Positions 844-43,888 of a stretch of 64,000 nt of DNA are shown here, piece by piece (within the stretch, counting starts at the first letter, position 1; each line of letters begins with the position of its first letter). A program made the position numbers and the translations under genes. The notes below the pieces were generated by a model. It made no database searches and was not told the origin of the DNA. It saw only the letters and a program-made list of their open reading frames with translations. The stretch is taken from NCBI GenBank assembly GCA_963713975.1, contig OY970218.1, forward strand, positions 3,424,001-3,488,000. The letters run 5' to 3'. Source of the DNA: an uncultured Chloroflexia bacterium. Its GTDB lineage: Bacteria > Chloroflexota > Limnocylindria > Limnocylindrales > CSP1-4.

Positions 844-873
844 CCGATCTTGGCCCGGCGGACGGCCCCTTGA

Positions 874-1028
874 GCCGCCCACCGGTTCAACCGTCGGGTG
901 CGGCCCGTGTGCGCCGCTGGGCGGCACGCTCGTCGGCCGAGGAGCCTGTCTCGACCCTGTAGGCCCGACAGATGTGCCGCCAGGCGGCGCGTTTTGCGAT
1001 GCGCCCGACCGTTCAACCGGTGAGCGGC
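874..1028. repeat. Long imperfect palindrome, family R146, copy A (155 bp variant)
   Basis: GCCGCCCACCGGTTCAACCGTCGGGTG...GCCCGACCGTTCAACCGGTGAGCGGC arms and inner GCGGCAC/GTGCCGC stem, shared with six other copies; lies between convergent genes. Confidence 0.85.
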
Positions 1029-1076
1029 GGCTGGGTCACGCGCGGCGCGGCCAACCTGTACCCGGTACGCGGCGGT

Positions 1077-7803: not shown

Positions 7804-7865
7804 GTTCGCGCCGGCGGGTTCGCGCCGGGCGCCGGCCCCGCGCCGCCGGTCGCGTCGCCCGGAAT

Positions 7866-8011
7866 GCCGCGCAGCGGTTCAACCGTCGGGTGAACTCCCG
7901 GTTCACCCGCCCAGCGGCACATCTGCCGGCTGTTGGGCTGATTCCGCCCAACGGATGTGCCCTCCAGCGGCGCAAACCGGGTCGCACCCGACCGTTCAGC
8001 CGGCCGGCGGC
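7866..8011 (+). repeat. R146 palindromic repeat copy B (146 bp)
   Basis: GCCGCGCAGCGGTTCAACCGTCGGGTGAACT...CAGCGGCACATCTG...GGATGTGCC...GCGGCGCAAACC...CACCCGACCGTT...GGCGGC. Confidence 0.9.
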
Positions 8012-8102
8012 CGGCGGCGGCCCAGCCGGCCGGCGGCAGGCGGCGGCCCGCCGGCCCGGCGGGCTCCTCACGGGCCCGACCCGGACCCACGGGATCGACC
8101 GC

Positions 8103-17992: not shown

Positions 17993-18535
17993 CTACTGCC
18001 CGACGTTCGCCCAGTAGCGCCGAAGCTGGGTGTCGGACTCCTCTTCGGCTCGGGCGAGGTCGTCGCGGCAGGCGTCCAGCCAGGTCGAGCTTGCCAGCGA
18101 CCAGGCCAGCACGAACGGGGGCAGGCCGAAGACCACCCACGCCGCCGCAAGGGCCGGGTTCTGGTCCGTCAGGTGTGGCCAGATGAGGAGGCCAAGCGCG
18201 AGCAACAGGCCCACCGGCACCCAGCCGGCCACGAGCAGGCCCAGCGATGCGTCGTCGCTGTCGATCTCCCTGGCCCGTTCCCAGGCTCGCTCGCGCGCCT
18301 CGAGCGCGGGGCGCCCACCCAGGCGCCGGGAGATCCGCACGACAGCCGCGTAGGCCACCAGCACGACGACCGCCAGACCCCCGATGCCGTCCCTGACAGC
18401 CACCTCGGGCTTCGCGGCCACGGGCCACAGCGCCAGCAGGGCGAGGGCCGCCACCAGCGCAAGGCCCCGGCCCATCACGCCGACGAGGGCCAAGCGCACG
18501 GGTGCCTCAACCTGTGACCGCGGATCCAGGCTCAT
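17993..18535 (-). CDS. Hypothetical membrane protein (about 4 TM)
   Basis: 180 aa ORF with four hydrophobic segments. Confidence 0.6.
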   Translation of the reverse strand: MSLDPRSQVEAPVRLALVGVMGRGLALVAALALLALWPVAAKPEVAVRDGIGGLAVVVLVAYAAVVRISRRLGGRPALEARERAWERAREIDSDDASLGLLVAGWVPVGLLLALGLLIWPHLTDQNPALAAAWVVFGLPPFVLAWSLASSTWLDACRDDLARAEEESDTQLRRYWANVGQ

Positions 18536-18631
18536 GCCGGGAGTGTCGGCCTCCGGACCGTCCGCGGACAGGTGCCGATGGTTGCCCTCGAGATGGGGCC
18601 GTGCGGCCCGAAATGGCCGGGTCGGTCCCTG

Positions 18632-18720
18632 GGCCGGTTGCCCGTGCCGGTGCCGGTGGGCCGTGCCGGTGCCGGTTGCCGGTTGCCGGTGGGCCGTGCC
18701 GGTCCCGGTCGCCGGTCGCC
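18632..18720. repeat. Low-complexity tandem repeat abutting R146 copy C
   Basis: Reiterated GCCGGT/GCCGGTT/GCCGTGCCGGT units. Confidence 0.7.
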
Positions 18721-18723
18721 CGT

Positions 18724-18869
18724 ACCCGCCAGCGGTTCAACCATCGGGTGAACTGCCGATCCACCCGACCAGCGGCACGTCTGTCGGCTGTCAGGGCAAC
18801 TCTGGCCGATGGATGTGCCGCCCCGCGGCGCAAACCGAGAAGGACCCGACCGTAGCACCGCCTGGCGGC
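18724..18869 (+). repeat. R146 palindromic repeat copy C (146 bp), downstream flank of HTH-nuclease gene
   Basis: CAGCGGTTCAACCATCGGGTGAACTGCCGATCCACCCGACCAGCGGCACGT...GGATGTGCCGCC...GGCGCAAACC...GACCCGACCGTAG...GCGGC. Confidence 0.9.
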
Positions 18870-18906
18870 TCCAGGGCACCGCGGGCCAACCCGAGCACCG
18901 GAGACC

Positions 18907-19563
18907 TCACAGCACGATGATCCCGCTCGCAGCCGGGATCCTGCCACGACGCAGCGCCCGGGCGATTGCGGCGCCATCGAGAGGAAACTGGGCACGAAGG
19001 GCTTCGCGATGCTCGGCGAGGATCCGCCGGTTGTGCGAAGTGTCGTTGACAGCGAGGATCACCACCCCTGCGTCGGGGTCGTCGCGGGCCTTGAGATCGA
19101 TGCGCCTGGCGAGAGCCTGTGCATCGTGGATGCGTGACTCCCCCTCGATCGAGGCACTGGCCGTGCCGTCACCTACGCGCCCATCCCAGGCGCGCCGGTC
19201 ACCGACGATAGGCAACGGGACCTCGCGGCGCATCCGAAGGGGTGCGTGGAGGAGCATCTCGACGCGAGCAAGCAATGCGAGTTGCGCCGCATCCCGGATG
19301 GGCTCGCCAGACGGGTAGGCCTTGAACGCCGGCTCCATACCGACGGCTCGACATGCCCGGCAGAGCTGCTCGAGCGATGGGTAACGGAGGCTACCGCGCT
19401 CGATGCGTCCGTACTGCGACGCTGACATGCGGGCGCGTGCGGCTGCCAGCCGCTGGCTGATCCCAATGGCTCGACGGGCTTCGCCGATCTCTCGGCAAAG
19501 AGCCGCGCTCAGACGTCGGGCATCGGCTGCCCCGAGATCCCCTGGTCGCTGTCGAGCCGTCAT
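18907..19563 (-). CDS. XRE-type HTH fused to a PD-(D/E)XK-like (DUF559/Vsr-like) domain
   Basis: N-terminal ARRAIGISQRLAAARARMSASQYGRIERG HTH; C-terminal REVPL..RAWDG..SIEGESR restriction-endonuclease-like motif. Confidence 0.7.
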   Translation of the reverse strand: MTARQRPGDLGAADARRLSAALCREIGEARRAIGISQRLAAARARMSASQYGRIERGSLRYPSLEQLCRACRAVGMEPAFKAYPSGEPIRDAAQLALLARVEMLLHAPLRMRREVPLPIVGDRRAWDGRVGDGTASASIEGESRIHDAQALARRIDLKARDDPDAGVVILAVNDTSHNRRILAEHREALRAQFPLDGAAIARALRRGRIPAASGIIVL

Positions 19564-19681
19564 CGACAGCATCCTGAACCCGCACAATTCGCTGAGGCTT
19601 ATCGCCGGCGTCGCGCGGCCTCACGCAGGTCGCCTCGGCGAGCCGGGCAGCGCCGGCGCGTGCCGCCCAGCGCCGACGCGT

Positions 19682-19827
19682 GCCCCCCAGAGGTTCAACC
19701 ATCGGGTGAACTGCCGATCCAACCGACCAGCGGCACGTGTGTCGGCCGTCAGTGCCCTTCCGGCCGATGGATGTACCGCCCACCGGCGCAAACCACGCTG
19801 GACCCGACCGTAGAGCCGCCCAGCGGC
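19682..19827 (+). repeat. R146 palindromic repeat copy D (146 bp), upstream flank of HTH-nuclease gene
   Basis: GGTTCAACCATCGGGTGAACTGCCGATCCAACCGACCAGCGGCACGT...GGCCGATGGATGT...GGCGCAAACC...GACCCGACCGTAG; closest to copy C. Confidence 0.9.
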
Positions 19828-19873
19828 ACACGGGTGGCACGTGGGCGGCCCGCCCCCGCGCCCGCCGGGACCC

Positions 19874-20800
19874 CTACGAACGCCCGAAGAACGCCACCGA
19901 GAGCGTCGTGAGCCGGGCCAGCTCCTCTTCCGAGAGCTCGAGGTCAGCCGCGGCGGAGTTTGCGTCGAGCTGCTCCAGGGTGCGGGCGCCCGGGATCGCG
20001 ATCGTATTGGGATGCGATAGCACCCAGGCCAGTGCCACCTGCGCCGACGTGGCGTCGTGCGCGGCCGCGATCTCGGACAGGGTGACCCTCAGGGGATCGA
20101 TGCCCGGGTTGCGGCTCGCCATCTTGCCCTGGGGCCGGGCGAACCCTCCGATGCCGGGCCAGGACGTGCGCCCGGCGAGCAGCCCCTGGCCCAGCGGCGA
20201 ATACGCCACCACCGCCCGGCCCGCGGATGCCGCGAACGGCACCAGGTCGGCGGCCGGCGACGGGCTCACGAGGCTGAACTGCACCTGGTTCGCCACGACC
20301 GGCGCCCGGAGCGCCGCCTCGGCATCCTGCCATTGGCGCAGCGAGAAGTTGGAGACGCCCGCGTGTCGTACCAGGCCATCGCTCATGAGCGGCCGAACCG
20401 CCTGCATGACGCGCCGCGCCGAGACGAAGGGGTTCTTCTGGTGAACGTACAGGAGGTCGAGGGTGTCCATGTCAAGCCGGCGTCGCGACCCGGCGACCTG
20501 CCAGGCGACGATGGGCTCGGCCGGGGCGATGGGAATGAACTTGGTCGCGACAACCAGCCCGTTACGGTGCCCGTTCGACAGCCCCGCAAGCGCCCCCCCG
20601 ATGATCCTCTCCGATCGTCCCGGGCCGTAGATCTCGGCCGTGTCGAGCATGGTGATCCCGAGCTCGAGCGCCCGCCGGACGAGCGCCGGCGCGGTCACGT
20701 TCGCGTACTCCGCCCCGTAGCCCCACTCCCGGCTGCCGAACTGCCAGGTGCCCAGACCGATGCGGGAGAGCCGCATCCCTTCGATGTCGATGTACTGCAT
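19874..20800 (-). CDS. Aldo/keto reductase
   Basis: IGLGTWQFG, DTAEIYG, ATK, LYVH, GVSNF, AYSPLGQG, AIPGA. Confidence 0.92.
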   Translation of the reverse strand: MQYIDIEGMRLSRIGLGTWQFGSREWGYGAEYANVTAPALVRRALELGITMLDTAEIYGPGRSERIIGGALAGLSNGHRNGLVVATKFIPIAPAEPIVAWQVAGSRRRLDMDTLDLLYVHQKNPFVSARRVMQAVRPLMSDGLVRHAGVSNFSLRQWQDAEAALRAPVVANQVQFSLVSPSPAADLVPFAASAGRAVVAYSPLGQGLLAGRTSWPGIGGFARPQGKMASRNPGIDPLRVTLSEIAAAHDATSAQVALAWVLSHPNTIAIPGARTLEQLDANSAAADLELSEEELARLTTLSVAFFGRS

Positions 20801-20876
20801 GGCCCTGAGTCTATGTTCGATGCCGCCCGGACCCCCGTGACAGACAGCTGGCACGCCGAGAGCGCACGATGCGGTC

Positions 20877-21110
20877 ATGCACCTCTTTCGACGCGCCAGG
20901 CGTGATCAGCCACGGTCCGCAGCCGCGGTTCCGCCGGTCGCACAGGTCCTGGCCGAGGACGATCTCCTGGCCGACGCACCCTTCACCTGCACCACCTGCG
21001 GCCGGTCGGATCTGCCGGAGGCCGGCGACTGGGACCCGCCCATCTGCGACGAATGCGACGCCGCCATCAACTTCGATGCGCTCACCCTCGAGATGAACGA
21101 GGACCACTGA
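20877..21110 (+). CDS. Small acidic zinc-ribbon protein
   Basis: CTTC...CDEC pairs; occupies an otherwise empty gap. Confidence 0.55.
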   Translation: MHLFRRARRDQPRSAAAVPPVAQVLAEDDLLADAPFTCTTCGRSDLPEAGDWDPPICDECDAAINFDALTLEMNEDH

Positions 21111-24209: not shown

Positions 24210-24250
24210 GCGGTGAGGCTACCCGGTCCCCGGCTGCTGGCCGCCGCTCT

Positions 24251-24396
24251 GCCGCTCAGCGGTTCTACCATCGGGTCAACCTGTGTTCGAGTCGCCTGGC
24301 GACACGTCTGTCGGCTGGCGGGGCTCCCCCGCCCCACGGATGTCCCGCTGCGCGGCGCAAACCGGCTGGCGCCCGACCGTTGGGTCGCCCGGCGAC
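24251..24396 (+). repeat. R146 palindromic repeat copy E (146 bp)
   Basis: GCCGCTCAGCGGTTCTACCATCGGGTCAACCTG...CGCCTGGCGACACGTCTG...GGCGCAAACC...GCCCGACCGTTGG. Confidence 0.9.
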
Positions 24397-24469
24397 GCAA
24401 GGCAGGAGCGTGGCCGGGGCAACGACGCGACGCAGGACCGGCGGCGCAAACTCGCGGGCGATCCGGCGG

Positions 24470-25408
24470 CTACCCCGGAGGGGCGGCCGCGATGACCGAG
24501 CCGCGCCGATCGCTCAGGGTCACGCCGATGGCGGCGGCGGTGACGCAGGCAATGGCCACCAGCGCACTCGGCGGCAGGGCCTGGCCGAGGATGACGGCGC
24601 CGACCATGGTGGCCACGACCGGCTCCAGCGTCACGATGACTCCGTAGGCTCGCGCGGTCATCCGCCTCAGCGCCTCGAACTCCAGCGACAACGGCAGGGC
24701 CGTCGACAGGATCGCCACCGCCAGCGCGCCGACCAGCAGCGCGGGATCCAGCCGGTCCAGGCCGCCGGCCGCCAGCCCGAAGGGCAGGGTGAACAGCGTG
24801 GCCACAACCATGGCCAGGGCGAGGCCCGCCCCGCCGACATCGCGCGCCACGCGGGGGCTGATCAGGATGAAGCTCGCCCACCCGGCGCCGGCCGCCAGTG
24901 CCAGGACGACGCCGAGCGGGTCGAGGTCGCCGCCGATGTCCGGCGTCAGCAGCACCAGTCCGGCGACGGCGAGGCCGATCCACACGAAATCCCTGGGCCT
25001 CCGCGAGGTGAGGACGGCGACGCCGAGCGGTCCGATGAACTCGATGGCCACCGCGACCCCCAGCGGGATCCTCGCGATGGCTCCGTAGAAGCACATGTTC
25101 ATTGCGCCGATGACGCAGCCATACAGCAGCAGCAGCCCGACATGACGGCGCGCGCCACCACCGAAGTGGCCCCGTGTGGCGACCAGCAGCAGGACCGCCG
25201 AGAAGGCGATGCGCAGGAAGCTCGTGGCGATCGGCCCGAGCGTCTCGAACAGGTGCACCGCGACCGCCGCGCCGAGCTGGATCGCGACGATCGACACCAG
25301 CAGCAGCGCCGGCGGCGGCATCGACGCAGTGGCACGGCCGAAGGGACCCGGATGCCGATGCGGCTCTGGGGCCTCCGGCGCCGTCGGGTCGATGGTGGGG
25401 GGCGTCAT
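24470..25408 (-). CDS. EamA/RhtA-like drug/metabolite transporter
   Basis: SIVAIQLGAAVA, RIPLGVAVAIEFIGPL, LSTALPLSLEFEALRR, LEP. Confidence 0.9.
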   Translation of the reverse strand: MTPPTIDPTAPEAPEPHRHPGPFGRATASMPPPALLLVSIVAIQLGAAVAVHLFETLGPIATSFLRIAFSAVLLLVATRGHFGGGARRHVGLLLLYGCVIGAMNMCFYGAIARIPLGVAVAIEFIGPLGVAVLTSRRPRDFVWIGLAVAGLVLLTPDIGGDLDPLGVVLALAAGAGWASFILISPRVARDVGGAGLALAMVVATLFTLPFGLAAGGLDRLDPALLVGALAVAILSTALPLSLEFEALRRMTARAYGVIVTLEPVVATMVGAVILGQALPPSALVAIACVTAAAIGVTLSDRRGSVIAAAPPG

Positions 25409-25468
25409 CGCGCCATCATGCCCCGCCAGGCCTCAGTCGGGATGCCCTCCCAGTGCACCCGCCGCCGC

Positions 25469-25614
25469 GCCGCCCAGCGGTTCTACCGTTGGGTCAACCT
25501 GCGTTTGACTCGCCTGGCGGCACGTCTATCGGCCGGCGGGGCTCCCTCACCCCACTTGGGTGCCGCCGGGCGGCGCAAACTGGCAGGCACCCGACCGTTG
25601 GGGCGCTCAGCGGC
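25469..25614 (+). repeat. R146 palindromic repeat copy F (146 bp)
   Basis: GCCGCCCAGCGGTTCTACCGTTGGGTCAACCTG...CGCCTGGCGGCACGTCT...GGCGCAAAC...CACCCGACCGTTGG; closest to copy E. Confidence 0.9.
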
Positions 25615-25805
25615 GCATGGCTCGGCGCAGGCGGGGTCGACTCAGACCGTGGGCTGCCTTGTGCGTGTCGAGATTCTCGTTCGCCCAGACGTAGAGACGG
25701 TAGGGCGCCGTCTGGCGCGGGTCGATGACGTTGGGGCTCACGGCGCCTCCGGGCGGCGCGGTCGGCTTCGGGCGGCCGTCGTGGGGCTGCTCGTGCGCGG
25801 ACGGG

Positions 25806-43649: not shown

Positions 43650-43657
43650 CGTGTCGT

Positions 43658-43803
43658 GCCGCTGGGCGGTTGTACCGTTGGTTGTCGTGCAGTTTGGGCC
43701 GCCAGGAGGCACACCTGTCGGTTGAACCGGGCCCTGGAGGCGGCAGACGTGCCTCCCGGCGGCTGGATCATGCCTTCACCCGACCGTACGGCCGCTGGGC
43801 GGC
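43658..43803 (-). repeat. R146 palindromic repeat copy G (146 bp, reverse orientation)
   Basis: Reverse complement GCCGCCCAGCGG..TCGGGTGAA..GAGGCACGTCTG..GTGTGCCTCC..GCGGCCCAAACT..CCGCCCAGCGGC. Confidence 0.85.
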
Positions 43804-43888
43804 GCAGGTGGCGGCGCAGGTGGGCGGCGCAGGTGGCGGCGCAGGTGGGGCGGGCGCAGGTGGCGGCGCAGGTGGCGGCGCAGGTGGG
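43798..43888. repeat. 12-15 bp tandem repeat abutting R146 copy G
   Basis: Seven GCGCAGGTG cores (unit approximately GGCGGCGCAGGT). Confidence 0.9.

What the first reader, a model, noticed from the sequence alone, without database searches (positions are those of the whole stretch)
18724..19827. HTH + PD-(D/E)XK-like gene enclosed by two direct R146 copies: candidate cognate enzyme of a new repeat-associated mobile system
Seen: the 218 aa XRE-HTH/nuclease-like ORF (E..AWDG..IEGESR) is the only gene between copies C and D. These two copies share long identical tracts (GGTTCAACCATCGGGTGAACTGCCGATCCA; CCGACCAGCGGCACGT; GGCCGATGGATGT) that differ in the other copies. Established: REP-associated tyrosine transposases (RAYTs) are flanked by their cognate palindromes. 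Inference: an analogous system using a restriction-endonuclease-like fold instead of an HUH Y1 domain, with the other copies as non-autonomous derivatives.
Basis: partly seen in the sequence, partly recalled or inferred. Interest (0 to 1): 0.85.

Follow-up and report, generated by a model that had tools for sequence, protein, structure and literature searches.

The report
Nuclease gene bracketed by hairpin repeats
A small gene for a DNA-binding, nuclease-like protein in an uncultured Chloroflexota bacterium sits between two copies of a 150-base hairpin-forming repeat that is also scattered through the genome, a pairing that resembles known repeat-plus-enzyme systems but is built on a different kind of enzyme.

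Summary
A 218-aa gene (18907-19563, minus strand) lies between two direct copies of a ~150-nt imperfect palindrome (R146) that has 32 copies in this 3.62-Mb genome. The protein is an XRE-type HTH fused to a domain that folds as a PD-(D/E)XK nuclease. The link is not a local accident. Across Limnocylindria genomes, 35 of 59 homologous loci carry a long palindrome within 350 nt, against 3 of 58 for control segments. Diverged protein subfamilies carry diverged palindromes. The gene-plus-repeats unit is present or absent as a block at one syntenic site. Solo repeats differ between sister species and are densest around the gene. No Y1 transposase, TnpB or IS110 was found in the genome. The best reading is a REPIN-RAYT-like two-part system built on an unrelated enzyme. 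That the protein binds, cuts or moves the repeat is inferred only. The repeat copies are old (mean 66% identity), and the canonical catalytic lysine is missing. Four literature searches found no description. This scan reached the same reading at least six times before, on other Limnocylindria genomes; those AI notes are not independent evidence.

The parts
18907..19563 (-). Gene for a 218-aa protein (stop codon included). It has an N-terminal XRE-type HTH and a C-terminal PD-(D/E)XK-fold domain (about residues 88-218).
   Evidence: ORF. HTH_3/HTH_31. Whole-protein model has pLDDT 87.6. C-terminal model has pLDDT 93 and pTM 0.88 with alpha-beta-beta-beta-alpha-beta topology. Top structural matches are 1y88 (Z 9.6), 2okf (Z 9.5), 2vld NucS (Z 8.3) and Card1 (Z 8.1).
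18723..18871 (+). R146 copy C (core by covariance model; 18714-18876 by the repeat finder), a ~150-nt imperfect palindrome. It ends about 35 nt (30 nt by the repeat finder extent) beyond the gene's stop codon.
   Evidence: G000:3442723-3442871.
19681..19829 (+). R146 copy D (core; 19672-19834 by the repeat finder). It lies about 110 nt upstream of the start codon, is a direct repeat of C, and is 84% identical to it.
19564..19671 (-). Spacer between copy D and the start codon, presumed to be the promoter/leader. A short TAAG...TAA..TG stretch is partly conserved in the orthologous loci of 5 genomes.
   Evidence: No sigma-70-type consensus match was found.
18633..18716 (.). G+C-rich tandem array (units of 7, 13, 19 and 26 nt) that abuts the outer end of copy C.
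   Evidence: TRF; sequence.
873..1030 (+). Solo R146 copy. No R146 is detected in the corresponding intergenic gap of G013.
7865..8011 (+). Solo R146 copy. The G013 orthologous intergenic region is 13 nt, against about 290 nt here.
24250..24398 (+). Solo R146 copy. With the next copy it brackets an unrelated 312-aa hydrophobic ORF.
25468..25616 (+). Solo R146 copy.
43657..43805 (+). Solo R146 copy with a 12-nt-unit tandem array at its 3' end.
19874..20878 (-). Neighbour gene A. It looks like an oxidoreductase of the aldo-keto-reductase type by my reading; its family was not tested. It marks one side of the insertion site.
17993..18535 (-). Neighbour gene B, a 180-aa hydrophobic ORF whose family was not tested. 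It marks the other side of the insertion site. In G024, G001 and G005 it lies 100-207 nt from neighbour A with nothing between.

Best explanation
This is a two-part repeat-plus-enzyme system analogous to REPIN-RAYT but built on an unrelated protein. One part is a chromosomal gene that is mostly vertically inherited. It encodes a dimeric XRE-HTH protein fused to a PD-(D/E)XK-fold nuclease domain, and it is bracketed by copies of its own ~150-nt hairpin- or cruciform-forming repeat. The other part is a population of solo copies of that repeat (30 more in this genome), which sit in intergenic DNA, mostly just after gene 3' ends.

Shown here: the fold; the physical linkage across many genomes; the co-divergence of protein subfamily and repeat family; gain and loss of the whole unit at one syntenic site; turnover of solo copies between sister species; and selection that keeps the repeat self-complementary.

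Inferred: the protein recognises the repeat, through the HTH dimer on the symmetric sequence and/or the nuclease domain on the extruded hairpin or cruciform, and nicks or cuts it. This would start the rare copying of repeats to nearby intergenic sites. The tandem arrays at repeat ends would be by-products of repair synthesis primed at such nicks.
For: FOLD. HTH_3/HTH_31 match. In the whole-protein search, the four rows that cover the C-terminal half are all PD-(D/E)XK-fold proteins. The C-terminal model has pLDDT 93. Nearly all of its 50 listed structural matches are PD-(D/E)XK proteins, led by 1y88 at Z 9.6 (101 aa aligned, rmsd 2.9) and 2okf at Z 9.5 (104 aa, rmsd 3.1), with NucS, Card1, Can2, Bax1, SdaI, Hjc and FokI below. 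Foldseek agrees only weakly (best E 4.6e-3). E114, D127, E140 and K158 (numbering of the 218-aa protein) are invariant or nearly so across subfamilies down to about 40% identity.

LINKAGE. A palindrome of >=90 nt lies in the 350 nt next to the gene in 19 of 53 left and 20 of 57 right segments, which is 35 of 59 loci. Segments 1100-1450 nt away score 1 of 50 and 2 of 53, which is 3 of 58 loci. Left and right flanks resemble each other in 15 of 51 loci, against 1 of 45 for the far segments. A second set gives 24 of 59 upstream and 12 of 63 downstream, against 1 of 56 and 0 of 59. The genome background is 9 of 400 and 3 of 300.

CO-DIVERGENCE. The R146 profile hits next to 19 of 26 loci with >=55% protein identity and next to 2 of 33 others. 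By the sequence-blind test, 15 of those 33 still have a palindrome. The paralogue in this genome (45-47% identical) has its own ~160-nt palindrome, with 3 more copies elsewhere in the genome.

CO-OCCURRENCE. All 18 genomes with a protein match at E <= 1e-60 have repeat-model matches, against 7 of the other 18.

UNIT INDEL. The layout repeat-gene-repeat sits between the same two neighbours in 6 genomes. The site is empty, with 100-207 nt between the neighbours, in G024, G001 and G005. In the neighbour-gene tree the filled sites form one clade (support 86/93) with empty G024 nested inside it (98/97).

TURNOVER. Of the 6 window copies compared with G013, only C and D are shared, and G013 has one copy that is absent here. 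For 31 of 32 copies in this genome the nearest relative is in the same genome.

LOCAL CLUSTERING. Five solo copies lie within +-25 kb of the gene, where 0.41 are expected. Only 0.2% of genome positions reach that count.

STRUCTURE KEPT. In 31 copies from this genome and 15 relatives, 34 of 43 pairs change on both sides. There are 129 such cells against 66.8 +- 6.8 in shuffles, and 0 of 500 shuffles reach the observed value.

NO OTHER MOBILISER FOUND. There is no Y1_Tnp, TnpB-type or IS110-type match in this single-contig genome.

DIMER. The homodimer model scores 0.74 against a best control of 0.20. That mark was reached by 20 of 30 proteins solved as pairs of one chain and by 1 of 23 solved as single chains. 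Runs agree in at least 84% of contacts and the partner's pLDDT is at least 84. The interface lies in the N-terminal domain, so the pass may reflect likeness to solved XRE dimers.
Against: There is no biochemical or expression evidence.

The canonical lysine two residues after the beta-3 acid is absent. That position is E, or I in distant subfamilies, and the basic residue after it varies among R, K and H. Catalysis is therefore not assured.

The repeat population is old. Mean pairwise identity is 66% and nearest neighbours are 71-91% identical, with no identical copies. Nothing shows current activity.

Bracketing is not specific within this window, because another pair of copies flanks an unrelated ORF.

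Some genomes break the co-occurrence. G003 has 10 repeat-model matches but only distant or fragmentary protein matches, and G011 has 2 matches and no protein match. Five of the 26 genomes that hold a family member had no repeat-model match.

In 24 of 59 loci my test found no palindrome.

No target-site duplication was seen, except one 34-bp direct repeat in G015.

The genomes are related MAGs, so the counts are not independent.

The pairing scheme tested was chosen on the same alignment, and the profile was built iteratively on the same loci it was then scored against.
Confidence: 0.55

Rival explanations
1. The unit is an autonomous selfish cassette: a new kind of insertion sequence whose transposase is the HTH-PD-(D/E)XK protein and whose ends are the two palindromes. 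The solo R146 copies would be MITE-like derivatives. On this reading the gene moves itself rather than being a resident partner.
For: The whole unit is present or absent as a block at one syntenic site, with at least two events implied. Genomes hold 1-10 matches to the protein, some of them fragments or with in-frame stops. Many copies lie at contig ends. The G015 unit is bracketed by a perfect 34-bp direct repeat that lies outside both palindromes. In G001 the gene sits between 322-nt direct repeats that are 95% identical.
Against: None of the 53 within-genome protein pairs exceeds 68% identity, so no recent self-copying is visible. At the syntenic locus the protein's identity tracks that of its neighbour (85/83, 72/67, 74/65, 73/69 and 71/64%), as expected for vertical descent. 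No duplication of >=10 nt flanks the unit in G000, G028 or G030. Solo copies are single palindromes, not two ends joined.
Confidence: 0.17
2. The protein is a transcription factor or nucleoid-type DNA-binding protein with a catalytically inactive nuclease-fold domain, and R146 copies are its binding sites. On this reading the repeats spread by some other route, such as recombination or replication slippage.
For: The XRE HTH is well supported and a dimer through the HTH domain is predicted. The repeat is symmetric and carries short invariant stretches. The canonical lysine is missing. The copies are old, which fits sites that are maintained rather than a replicating population.
Against: Several acidic residues sit at the canonical nuclease positions and are invariant down to about 40% identity. 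Repeats sit after gene 3' ends, often between convergent genes, which is a poor place for operators. Solo copies come and go between sister species. Compensatory changes preserve intra-strand pairing over 43 pairs, which is more than a dimer's operator would need.
Confidence: 0.12
3. The gene is a solitary sequence- or structure-specific nuclease with another job, such as a restriction-like, homing, defence or toxin-antitoxin function, or resolution of cruciforms for the host. On this reading the palindromes collect beside it for reasons of their own.
For: Structural neighbours include SdaI, FokI, Hjc, NucS, Bax1 and CRISPR-ancillary nucleases. Presence is patchy and multi-copy across the genus.
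Against: There is no defence-family match beyond the HTH. I saw no methyltransferase or partner gene: the same two unrelated neighbours flank the unit in 6 genomes. A chance pile-up of repeats does not explain why diverged subfamilies carry diverged palindromes at the same distances. The background rate after 3' ends is 9 of 400.
Confidence: 0.1

Closest known systems
REPIN-RAYT systems (REP doublets forming hairpins plus a REP-associated tyrosine transposase)
   Same: An enzyme gene is flanked by its own palindromic repeats. The repeats are dispersed in extragenic space. The gene stays at the same site in related species and tracks its neighbour's divergence. Several diverged enzyme lineages occur per genome, each with its own repeat family. 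Enzyme and repeat population co-occur. Turnover is very slow. For REPIN-RAYT these features are taken from passages of 10.1101/2021.07.10.451892 and abstracts listed.
   Different: The enzyme is not an HUH/Y1 transposase; it is an XRE-HTH plus PD-(D/E)XK-fold protein. The repeat is longer (about 150 nt against about 100), has fewer copies (32) and its copies are far more diverged (mean 66% identity). The flanking copies are direct, not inverted. Tandem arrays abut the repeat ends.
IS200/IS605 and their hairpin-ended derivatives (Y1 TnpA acting on subterminal hairpins)
   Same: A small element with hairpin-forming ends and non-autonomous hairpin derivatives.
   Different: There is no Y1_Tnp or TnpB-type match in the genome. 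No near-identical copies of the gene exist within a genome.
Structure-specific PD-(D/E)XK nucleases and small PD-(D/E)XK proteins: AF1548 (1y88), XisH-like fdxN excision factor (2okf/2inb), NucS/EndoMS (2vld), Hjc (1gef), Bax1
   Same: The same core fold, at Z 6.1-9.6 over 94-104 aligned residues. Several of these enzymes act on branched or distorted DNA. That they would suit a hairpin or cruciform substrate is my inference.
   Different: Sequence identity is only 10-17% and there is no Pfam match. The XRE-HTH fusion and the repeat association were not found described for these proteins in my literature searches.
HTH-plus-PD-(D/E)XK restriction endonucleases such as SdaI (2ixs)
   Same: A DNA-binding domain is fused N-terminally to a PD-(D/E)XK catalytic domain (rank 12, Z 6.5). 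The domain layout of SdaI is recalled, not tested.
   Different: No methyltransferase partner was seen beside the gene. The gene is linked to a dispersed repeat family.

Membership tests
REPIN-RAYT system | The enzyme is an HUH/Y1 tyrosine transposase (Pfam Y1_Tnp, PF01797). | tested here: not met
   Pfam finds only HTH families in the protein. There is no PF01797 match anywhere in the genome, while the control genomes ring.
REPIN-RAYT system | The enzyme gene is flanked by members of its own repeat family. | tested here: met
   Copies C and D flank the gene. The enrichment holds at 35 of 59 loci against 3 of 58, and at 34 of 66 loci against far segments of 1 of 56 and 0 of 59.
REPIN-RAYT system | The repeats are hairpin-forming palindromic elements dispersed in extragenic space. 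| tested here: met
   There are 32 copies. The fold z-score is -4.15. Covariation is seen in 34 of 43 pairs. Of the 32 copies, 29 lie outside strictly called ORFs, mostly after 3' ends.
REPIN-RAYT system | The enzyme gene is inherited vertically at a fixed site and does not copy itself. | tested here: inconclusive
   The same site is filled in 6 genomes and the protein's identity tracks its neighbour's. Within-genome copies are <=68% identical. Against this, the whole unit shows gain and loss, and up to 10 matches to the protein occur per genome.
REPIN-RAYT system | The repeat population depends on presence of the enzyme. | tested here: inconclusive
   The counts are 18 of 18 against 7 of 18 genomes. 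The genomes are related and incomplete MAGs. G003 is an exception.
PD-(D/E)XK nuclease superfamily | A core fold of alpha-beta-beta-beta-alpha-beta. | tested here: met
   The model has that topology, with pLDDT 93. Nearly all of the 50 listed structural matches are PD-(D/E)XK proteins, with a top Z of 9.6.
PD-(D/E)XK nuclease superfamily | The catalytic motif D ... (D/E)-x-K. | tested here: inconclusive
   D127 lies in beta-2 and E140 in beta-3, and both are conserved. The +2 position is E or I, not K. A nearly invariant K158 lies in the following helix.
PD-(D/E)XK nuclease superfamily | Metal-dependent nuclease activity. | not testable with these tools
   This needs a biochemical assay.
XRE-family HTH DNA-binding proteins | A Cro/C1-type helix-turn-helix domain. 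| tested here: met
   HTH_3 scores 32.6 bits (cut-off 23) and HTH_31 scores 32.8 bits (cut-off 27). Structural matches reach Z 8-9.5.
Autonomous insertion sequence | Several near-identical copies per genome and target-site duplications. | tested here: not met
   The highest within-genome identity is 68% over 53 pairs. No duplication of >=10 nt flanks the unit in G000, G028 or G030, and one 34-bp repeat flanks it in G015.
XisH family (fdxN excision controlling factor) | Sequence membership in the family. | tested here: inconclusive
   Structural likeness is Z 9.5. No Pfam match to any nuclease family appears at E <= 1 in 28 C-terminal domains.
Known anti-phage defence systems (PADLOC) | A match to a defence-system protein model beyond a generic HTH. 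| tested here: not met
   The only matches are to the HTH region: capH at E 0.0028 and HTH_VI at E 0.017.

The most novel reading that the evidence does not exclude
A second, independently evolved class of vertically inherited intragenomic replicators. In it, an HTH-guided, structure-specific PD-(D/E)XK nuclease, not an HUH transposase, nicks long cruciform- or hairpin-forming repeats and so drives their rare, mostly local copying. The tandem arrays at repeat ends would be scars of nick-primed synthesis. This would be a DNA-mobilisation chemistry that I did not find described for any prokaryotic repeat family, and it would be confined to Limnocylindria.
Probability: 0.35. Interest if true: 0.9.

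Novelty: new variant of a known kind. Interest (0 to 1): 0.78.

Why it matters
In the passages I read, REPIN-RAYT is presented as the case of a persistent, vertically inherited replicator population inside bacterial genomes. All known examples rest on HUH/Y1 chemistry. A look-alike system built on an unrelated nuclease fold, in a deep and uncultured lineage, would show that this way of life evolved more than once. It would also provide a second model for asking how such populations persist. The protein family itself is large and unnamed: 300 representatives of 50%-identity clusters match at E <= 1e-30, and its C-terminal domain has no Pfam family. A protein that recognises a defined 150-nt hairpin or cruciform would be a useful subject for work on structure-specific DNA recognition. 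The claim can be tested directly with standard binding and cleavage assays.

Tried and rejected
Rfam (gathering thresholds) over the whole window gave no match, so R146 is not a described RNA family.

NCBIfam, PHROGs and PADLOC matched only the HTH region.

Sequence searches of PDB chains, with the single protein and with the profile, matched only HTH proteins.

Foldseek on the whole model was dominated by HTH hits. That is why I folded the C-terminal domain alone.

An ungapped palindrome scanner of my own was too insensitive and missed copies C and D. I replaced it with a BLAST self-complement test on 350-nt segments.

The sigma-70 promoter and intrinsic terminator scans found nothing in 18400-20000.

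Public sequencing runs: one DNA holder carried a 0.07 share of the sampled words and no RNA holder was listed. I did not lay it, so there is no evidence on expression or on excised forms.

The ESM Atlas returned only unnamed Chloroflexota clusters.

Weak DUF7350 matches appeared in 7 of 28 C-terminal domains (best E 0.0019), but not in the 8 full-length proteins rescanned. I treat this as a lead only.

The short CCGC...GCGG motif is not an independent high-copy REP: 51 exact sites, 25 of them inside R146.

The search for target-site duplications was negative except in G015.

Orientation of diverged repeat copies relative to the gene could not be called reliably, because both strands score nearly alike.

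Four literature searches and term look-ups in one paper found no repeat-associated PD-(D/E)XK system and nothing on Limnocylindria repeats. Subscription journals and supplementary files were not searched.
Full report
WHAT IS THERE. The window is part of a single-contig 3,624,741-bp genome with 70.8% G+C. Sources of the closest protein homologues name it Candidatus Limnocylindrales, phylum Chloroflexota. All but one of the 66 related loci found among species representatives carry Chloroflexota-type titles.

On the minus strand, 18907-19563 encodes a 218-aa protein. It lies between two direct copies of a repeat: C at 18714-18876 and D at 19672-19834. These are 84% identical over 156 nt.

The repeat, R146, is an imperfect palindrome of about 150 nt. 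A profile built from the seven window copies finds 32 loci in the genome, each matching on both strands. Rfam has no match.

THE PROTEIN. Pfam sees only an XRE-type HTH, at residues 32-86 of the 226-aa reading. NCBIfam, PHROGs, PADLOC and PDB sequence searches see only that HTH as well.

An AlphaFold model built from 31 homologues has pLDDT 87.6. The four structural matches that cover its C-terminal half are all PD-(D/E)XK-fold proteins. Folded alone from 28 diverse homologues, the C-terminal 131 residues give pLDDT 93 and pTM 0.88, with the classical alpha-beta-beta-beta-alpha-beta order.

Nearly all of the 50 listed matches of that domain model are PD-(D/E)XK proteins. The best are AF1548 (Z 9.6), an XisH-like protein (Z 9.5), NucS (Z 8.3) and Card1 (Z 8.1), followed by Can2, Bax1, SdaI, Hjc and FokI. 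Foldseek agrees only weakly, with a best E of 4.6e-3.

E114, D127, E140 and K158 are invariant or nearly so, even among subfamilies about 40% identical. The residue two positions after E140 is E or I rather than the canonical K. The fold is therefore shown, but catalysis is not.

A homodimer model passes its controls, with a score of 0.74 against a best control of 0.20. That mark was reached by 20 of 30 proteins solved as pairs of one chain and by 1 of 23 solved as single chains. Runs agree in at least 84% of contacts and the partner's pLDDT is at least 84. The interface lies in the N-terminal domain, so the pass may only reflect likeness to solved XRE dimers.

The family is large. In a library of 1.84 billion proteins, 300 representatives of 50%-identity clusters match at E <= 1e-30 and 1061 match at E <= 1e-10.

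IS THE LINK TO THE REPEAT REAL? Within this window alone it would not be convincing, because the copies at 24241 and 25459 also bracket a single, unrelated ORF. The comparative evidence is what carries the claim.

In 59 loci from 27 genomes of the genus, a sequence-blind test finds a palindrome of at least 90 nt in the 350 nt next to the gene in 19 of 53 left and 20 of 57 right segments. That is 35 of 59 loci. Segments 1100-1450 nt away give 1 of 50 and 2 of 53, which is 3 of 58 loci. Left and right flanks resemble each other in 15 of 51 loci, against 1 of 45 for the far segments.

A second, partly overlapping set of 66 loci gives 24 of 59 upstream and 12 of 63 downstream, against 1 of 56 and 0 of 59. 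Upstream palindromes end 39-248 nt before the start codon. Downstream ones most often begin 30-48 nt after the end of the gene.

In this genome the same test is positive for 9 of 400 tiles placed just after gene 3' ends and for 3 of 300 random tiles. The test is conservative. It misses copy C and the G013 copies, which the family profile does find.

CO-DIVERGENCE. An R146 profile, refined iteratively on these same loci, hits next to 19 of the 26 loci whose protein is at least 55% identical to the query. It hits next to only 2 of the other 33. Yet 15 of those 33 do have a palindrome by the sequence-blind test.

In this genome, the paralogue at 2459586-2460227 is 45-47% identical to the query. 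It has a different ~160-nt palindrome starting 64 nt downstream, and that palindrome has three further copies elsewhere in the genome.

At genome level, all 18 genus genomes with a protein match at E <= 1e-60 also match a covariance model of R146, against 7 of the other 18. G003 is the clearest exception. It has 10 model matches but only distant or fragmentary matches to the nuclease domain.

These genomes are kin and mostly incomplete MAGs. The numbers describe a pattern and are not a test.

HISTORY OF THE LOCUS. The same two neighbour genes flank the repeat-gene-repeat unit in G000, G013, G028, G015, G030 and G012. In G024, G001 and G005 the two neighbours lie 100-207 nt apart, with no gene and no repeat between them.

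In a tree of the neighbour gene, the filled sites fall in one clade (support 86/93). The empty G024 site is nested inside that clade (98/97), and the empty G001 and G005 sites lie outside it. This implies a gain followed by a clean loss of the whole unit, or more than one gain. It is a gene tree, not a species tree.

Within the filled clade, the protein's identity to the query tracks that of the neighbour: 83/85, 67/72, 65/74, 69/73 and 64/71%. Genomes hold 1-10 matches to the protein, but none of the 53 within-genome pairs is more than 68% identical. The gene behaves like a set of old, vertically inherited lineages, not like a jumping insertion sequence.

THE SOLO REPEATS. Of the 32 copies, 29 lie outside strictly called ORFs. 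Most sit within about 100 nt of a gene's 3' end, often between convergent genes.

They turn over between sister species. Of six window copies compared with syntenic G013 DNA (72-90% identical), only C and D are shared, and G013 has one copy that this genome lacks. At the 7865 copy, the G013 intergenic region is 13 nt, against about 290 nt here.

The copies are nevertheless old. Mean pairwise identity is 66% and nearest neighbours are 71-91% identical. For 31 of 32 copies the nearest relative lies in the same genome.

The gene sits in the densest repeat neighbourhood of the chromosome. Five solo copies lie within 25 kb either side, where 0.41 are expected, and only 0.2% of genome positions reach that count.

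Self-complementarity is maintained by compensatory change. In 31 copies from this genome and 15 relatives, 34 of 43 pairs change on both sides. There are 129 such cells against 66.8 +- 6.8 in shuffles, and 0 of 500 shuffles reach the observed value. I picked the pairing scheme on the same alignment, so the slid-partner control is biased in its favour.

Ten of the 32 copies have a tandem array abutting one end, against 2.4 expected at random positions. The units of several arrays repeat the terminal motif of the element.

WHAT COULD MOVE THEM. The genome has no match to Y1_Tnp, to the TnpB-type zinc-ribbon domain or to the IS110 transposase domain, although the control genomes ring for each of these. 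The only protein consistently linked to the repeats is this one.

INTERPRETATION. The layout matches the defining layout of REPIN-RAYT systems. For those systems I read passages of 10.1101/2021.07.10.451892 and the abstracts listed. The enzyme class does not match.

I therefore read this as something that works like a REPIN-RAYT system but is not a member of that family. Binding, cutting and copying are inferred.

There are three rivals. One is a self-mobile cassette, supported by the indel of the whole unit, by one 34-bp flanking duplication in G015 and by nearly identical 322-nt flanks in G001. Another is a regulator with dispersed binding sites. The third is a solitary nuclease with another role.

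PRIOR KNOWLEDGE. Four full-text searches found no repeat-associated PD-(D/E)XK system and nothing on repeats in Limnocylindria. Subscription journals and supplementary files were not covered.

This scan's own notes hold at least six earlier reports of the same kind of cassette on other Limnocylindria genomes, all with the same reading. They are AI notes and not independent support. One of them prompted my check of tandem arrays.

Noticed in passing
window 24241-25621: Two R146 copies bracket a single unrelated 312-aa hydrophobic ORF at 24470-25408 (minus strand). It looks like a membrane transporter, but its family was not tested. The whole 1.6-kb interval does not align with the syntenic G013 DNA, which has 3.6 kb of other sequence there.
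   Followed up: partly
window 18633-18716, 19648-19690, 7998-8062, 43795-43887; also L091/L092 (G013) around its solo copy: G+C-rich tandem arrays (units of 7-39 nt) start at or within a few tens of nt of the ends of R146 copies. Ten of 32 copies in the genome have one, against 2.4 expected at random positions. In G013, one solo copy has roughly a dozen 15-nt units on one side and about six 20-nt units on the other. Several units repeat the element's terminal motif.
   Followed up: partly
L067 / L032 (G015), outside both flanking repeats: A perfect 34-bp direct repeat brackets the whole repeat-gene-repeat unit, 59 and 113 nt beyond the two palindromes. One copy supplies the stop codon of the neighbour gene. 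It is a candidate target duplication or a recent rearrangement. It is absent in G000, G028 and G030.
   Followed up: partly
L022 (G001) 1036-1356 and 2247-2567: A homologue from a distant subfamily (49% identity) is flanked by 322-nt direct repeats that are 95% identical, including 235 nt of exact match, with palindromic ends. This is a much fresher left-right pair than C and D.
   Followed up: no
L002 (G013) 830-1055 and 1059-1286: In G013, the repeat copy upstream of the orthologous gene is duplicated in tandem as a ~229-nt unit. The two R146 cores are 99% identical.
   Followed up: no
genome G000:C1 2460291-2460450, with copies near 1443275, 3069369 and 768390 (outside the window): A second, unrelated ~160-nt palindrome family of 4 copies. 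One copy lies 64 nt downstream of the paralogous HTH-nuclease gene.
   Followed up: partly
C-terminal domains of 7 of 28 homologues (alignment A4): Weak matches to Pfam DUF7350 (best E 0.0019). They were not seen in the 8 full-length proteins rescanned. This may point to a distant related family.
   Followed up: partly
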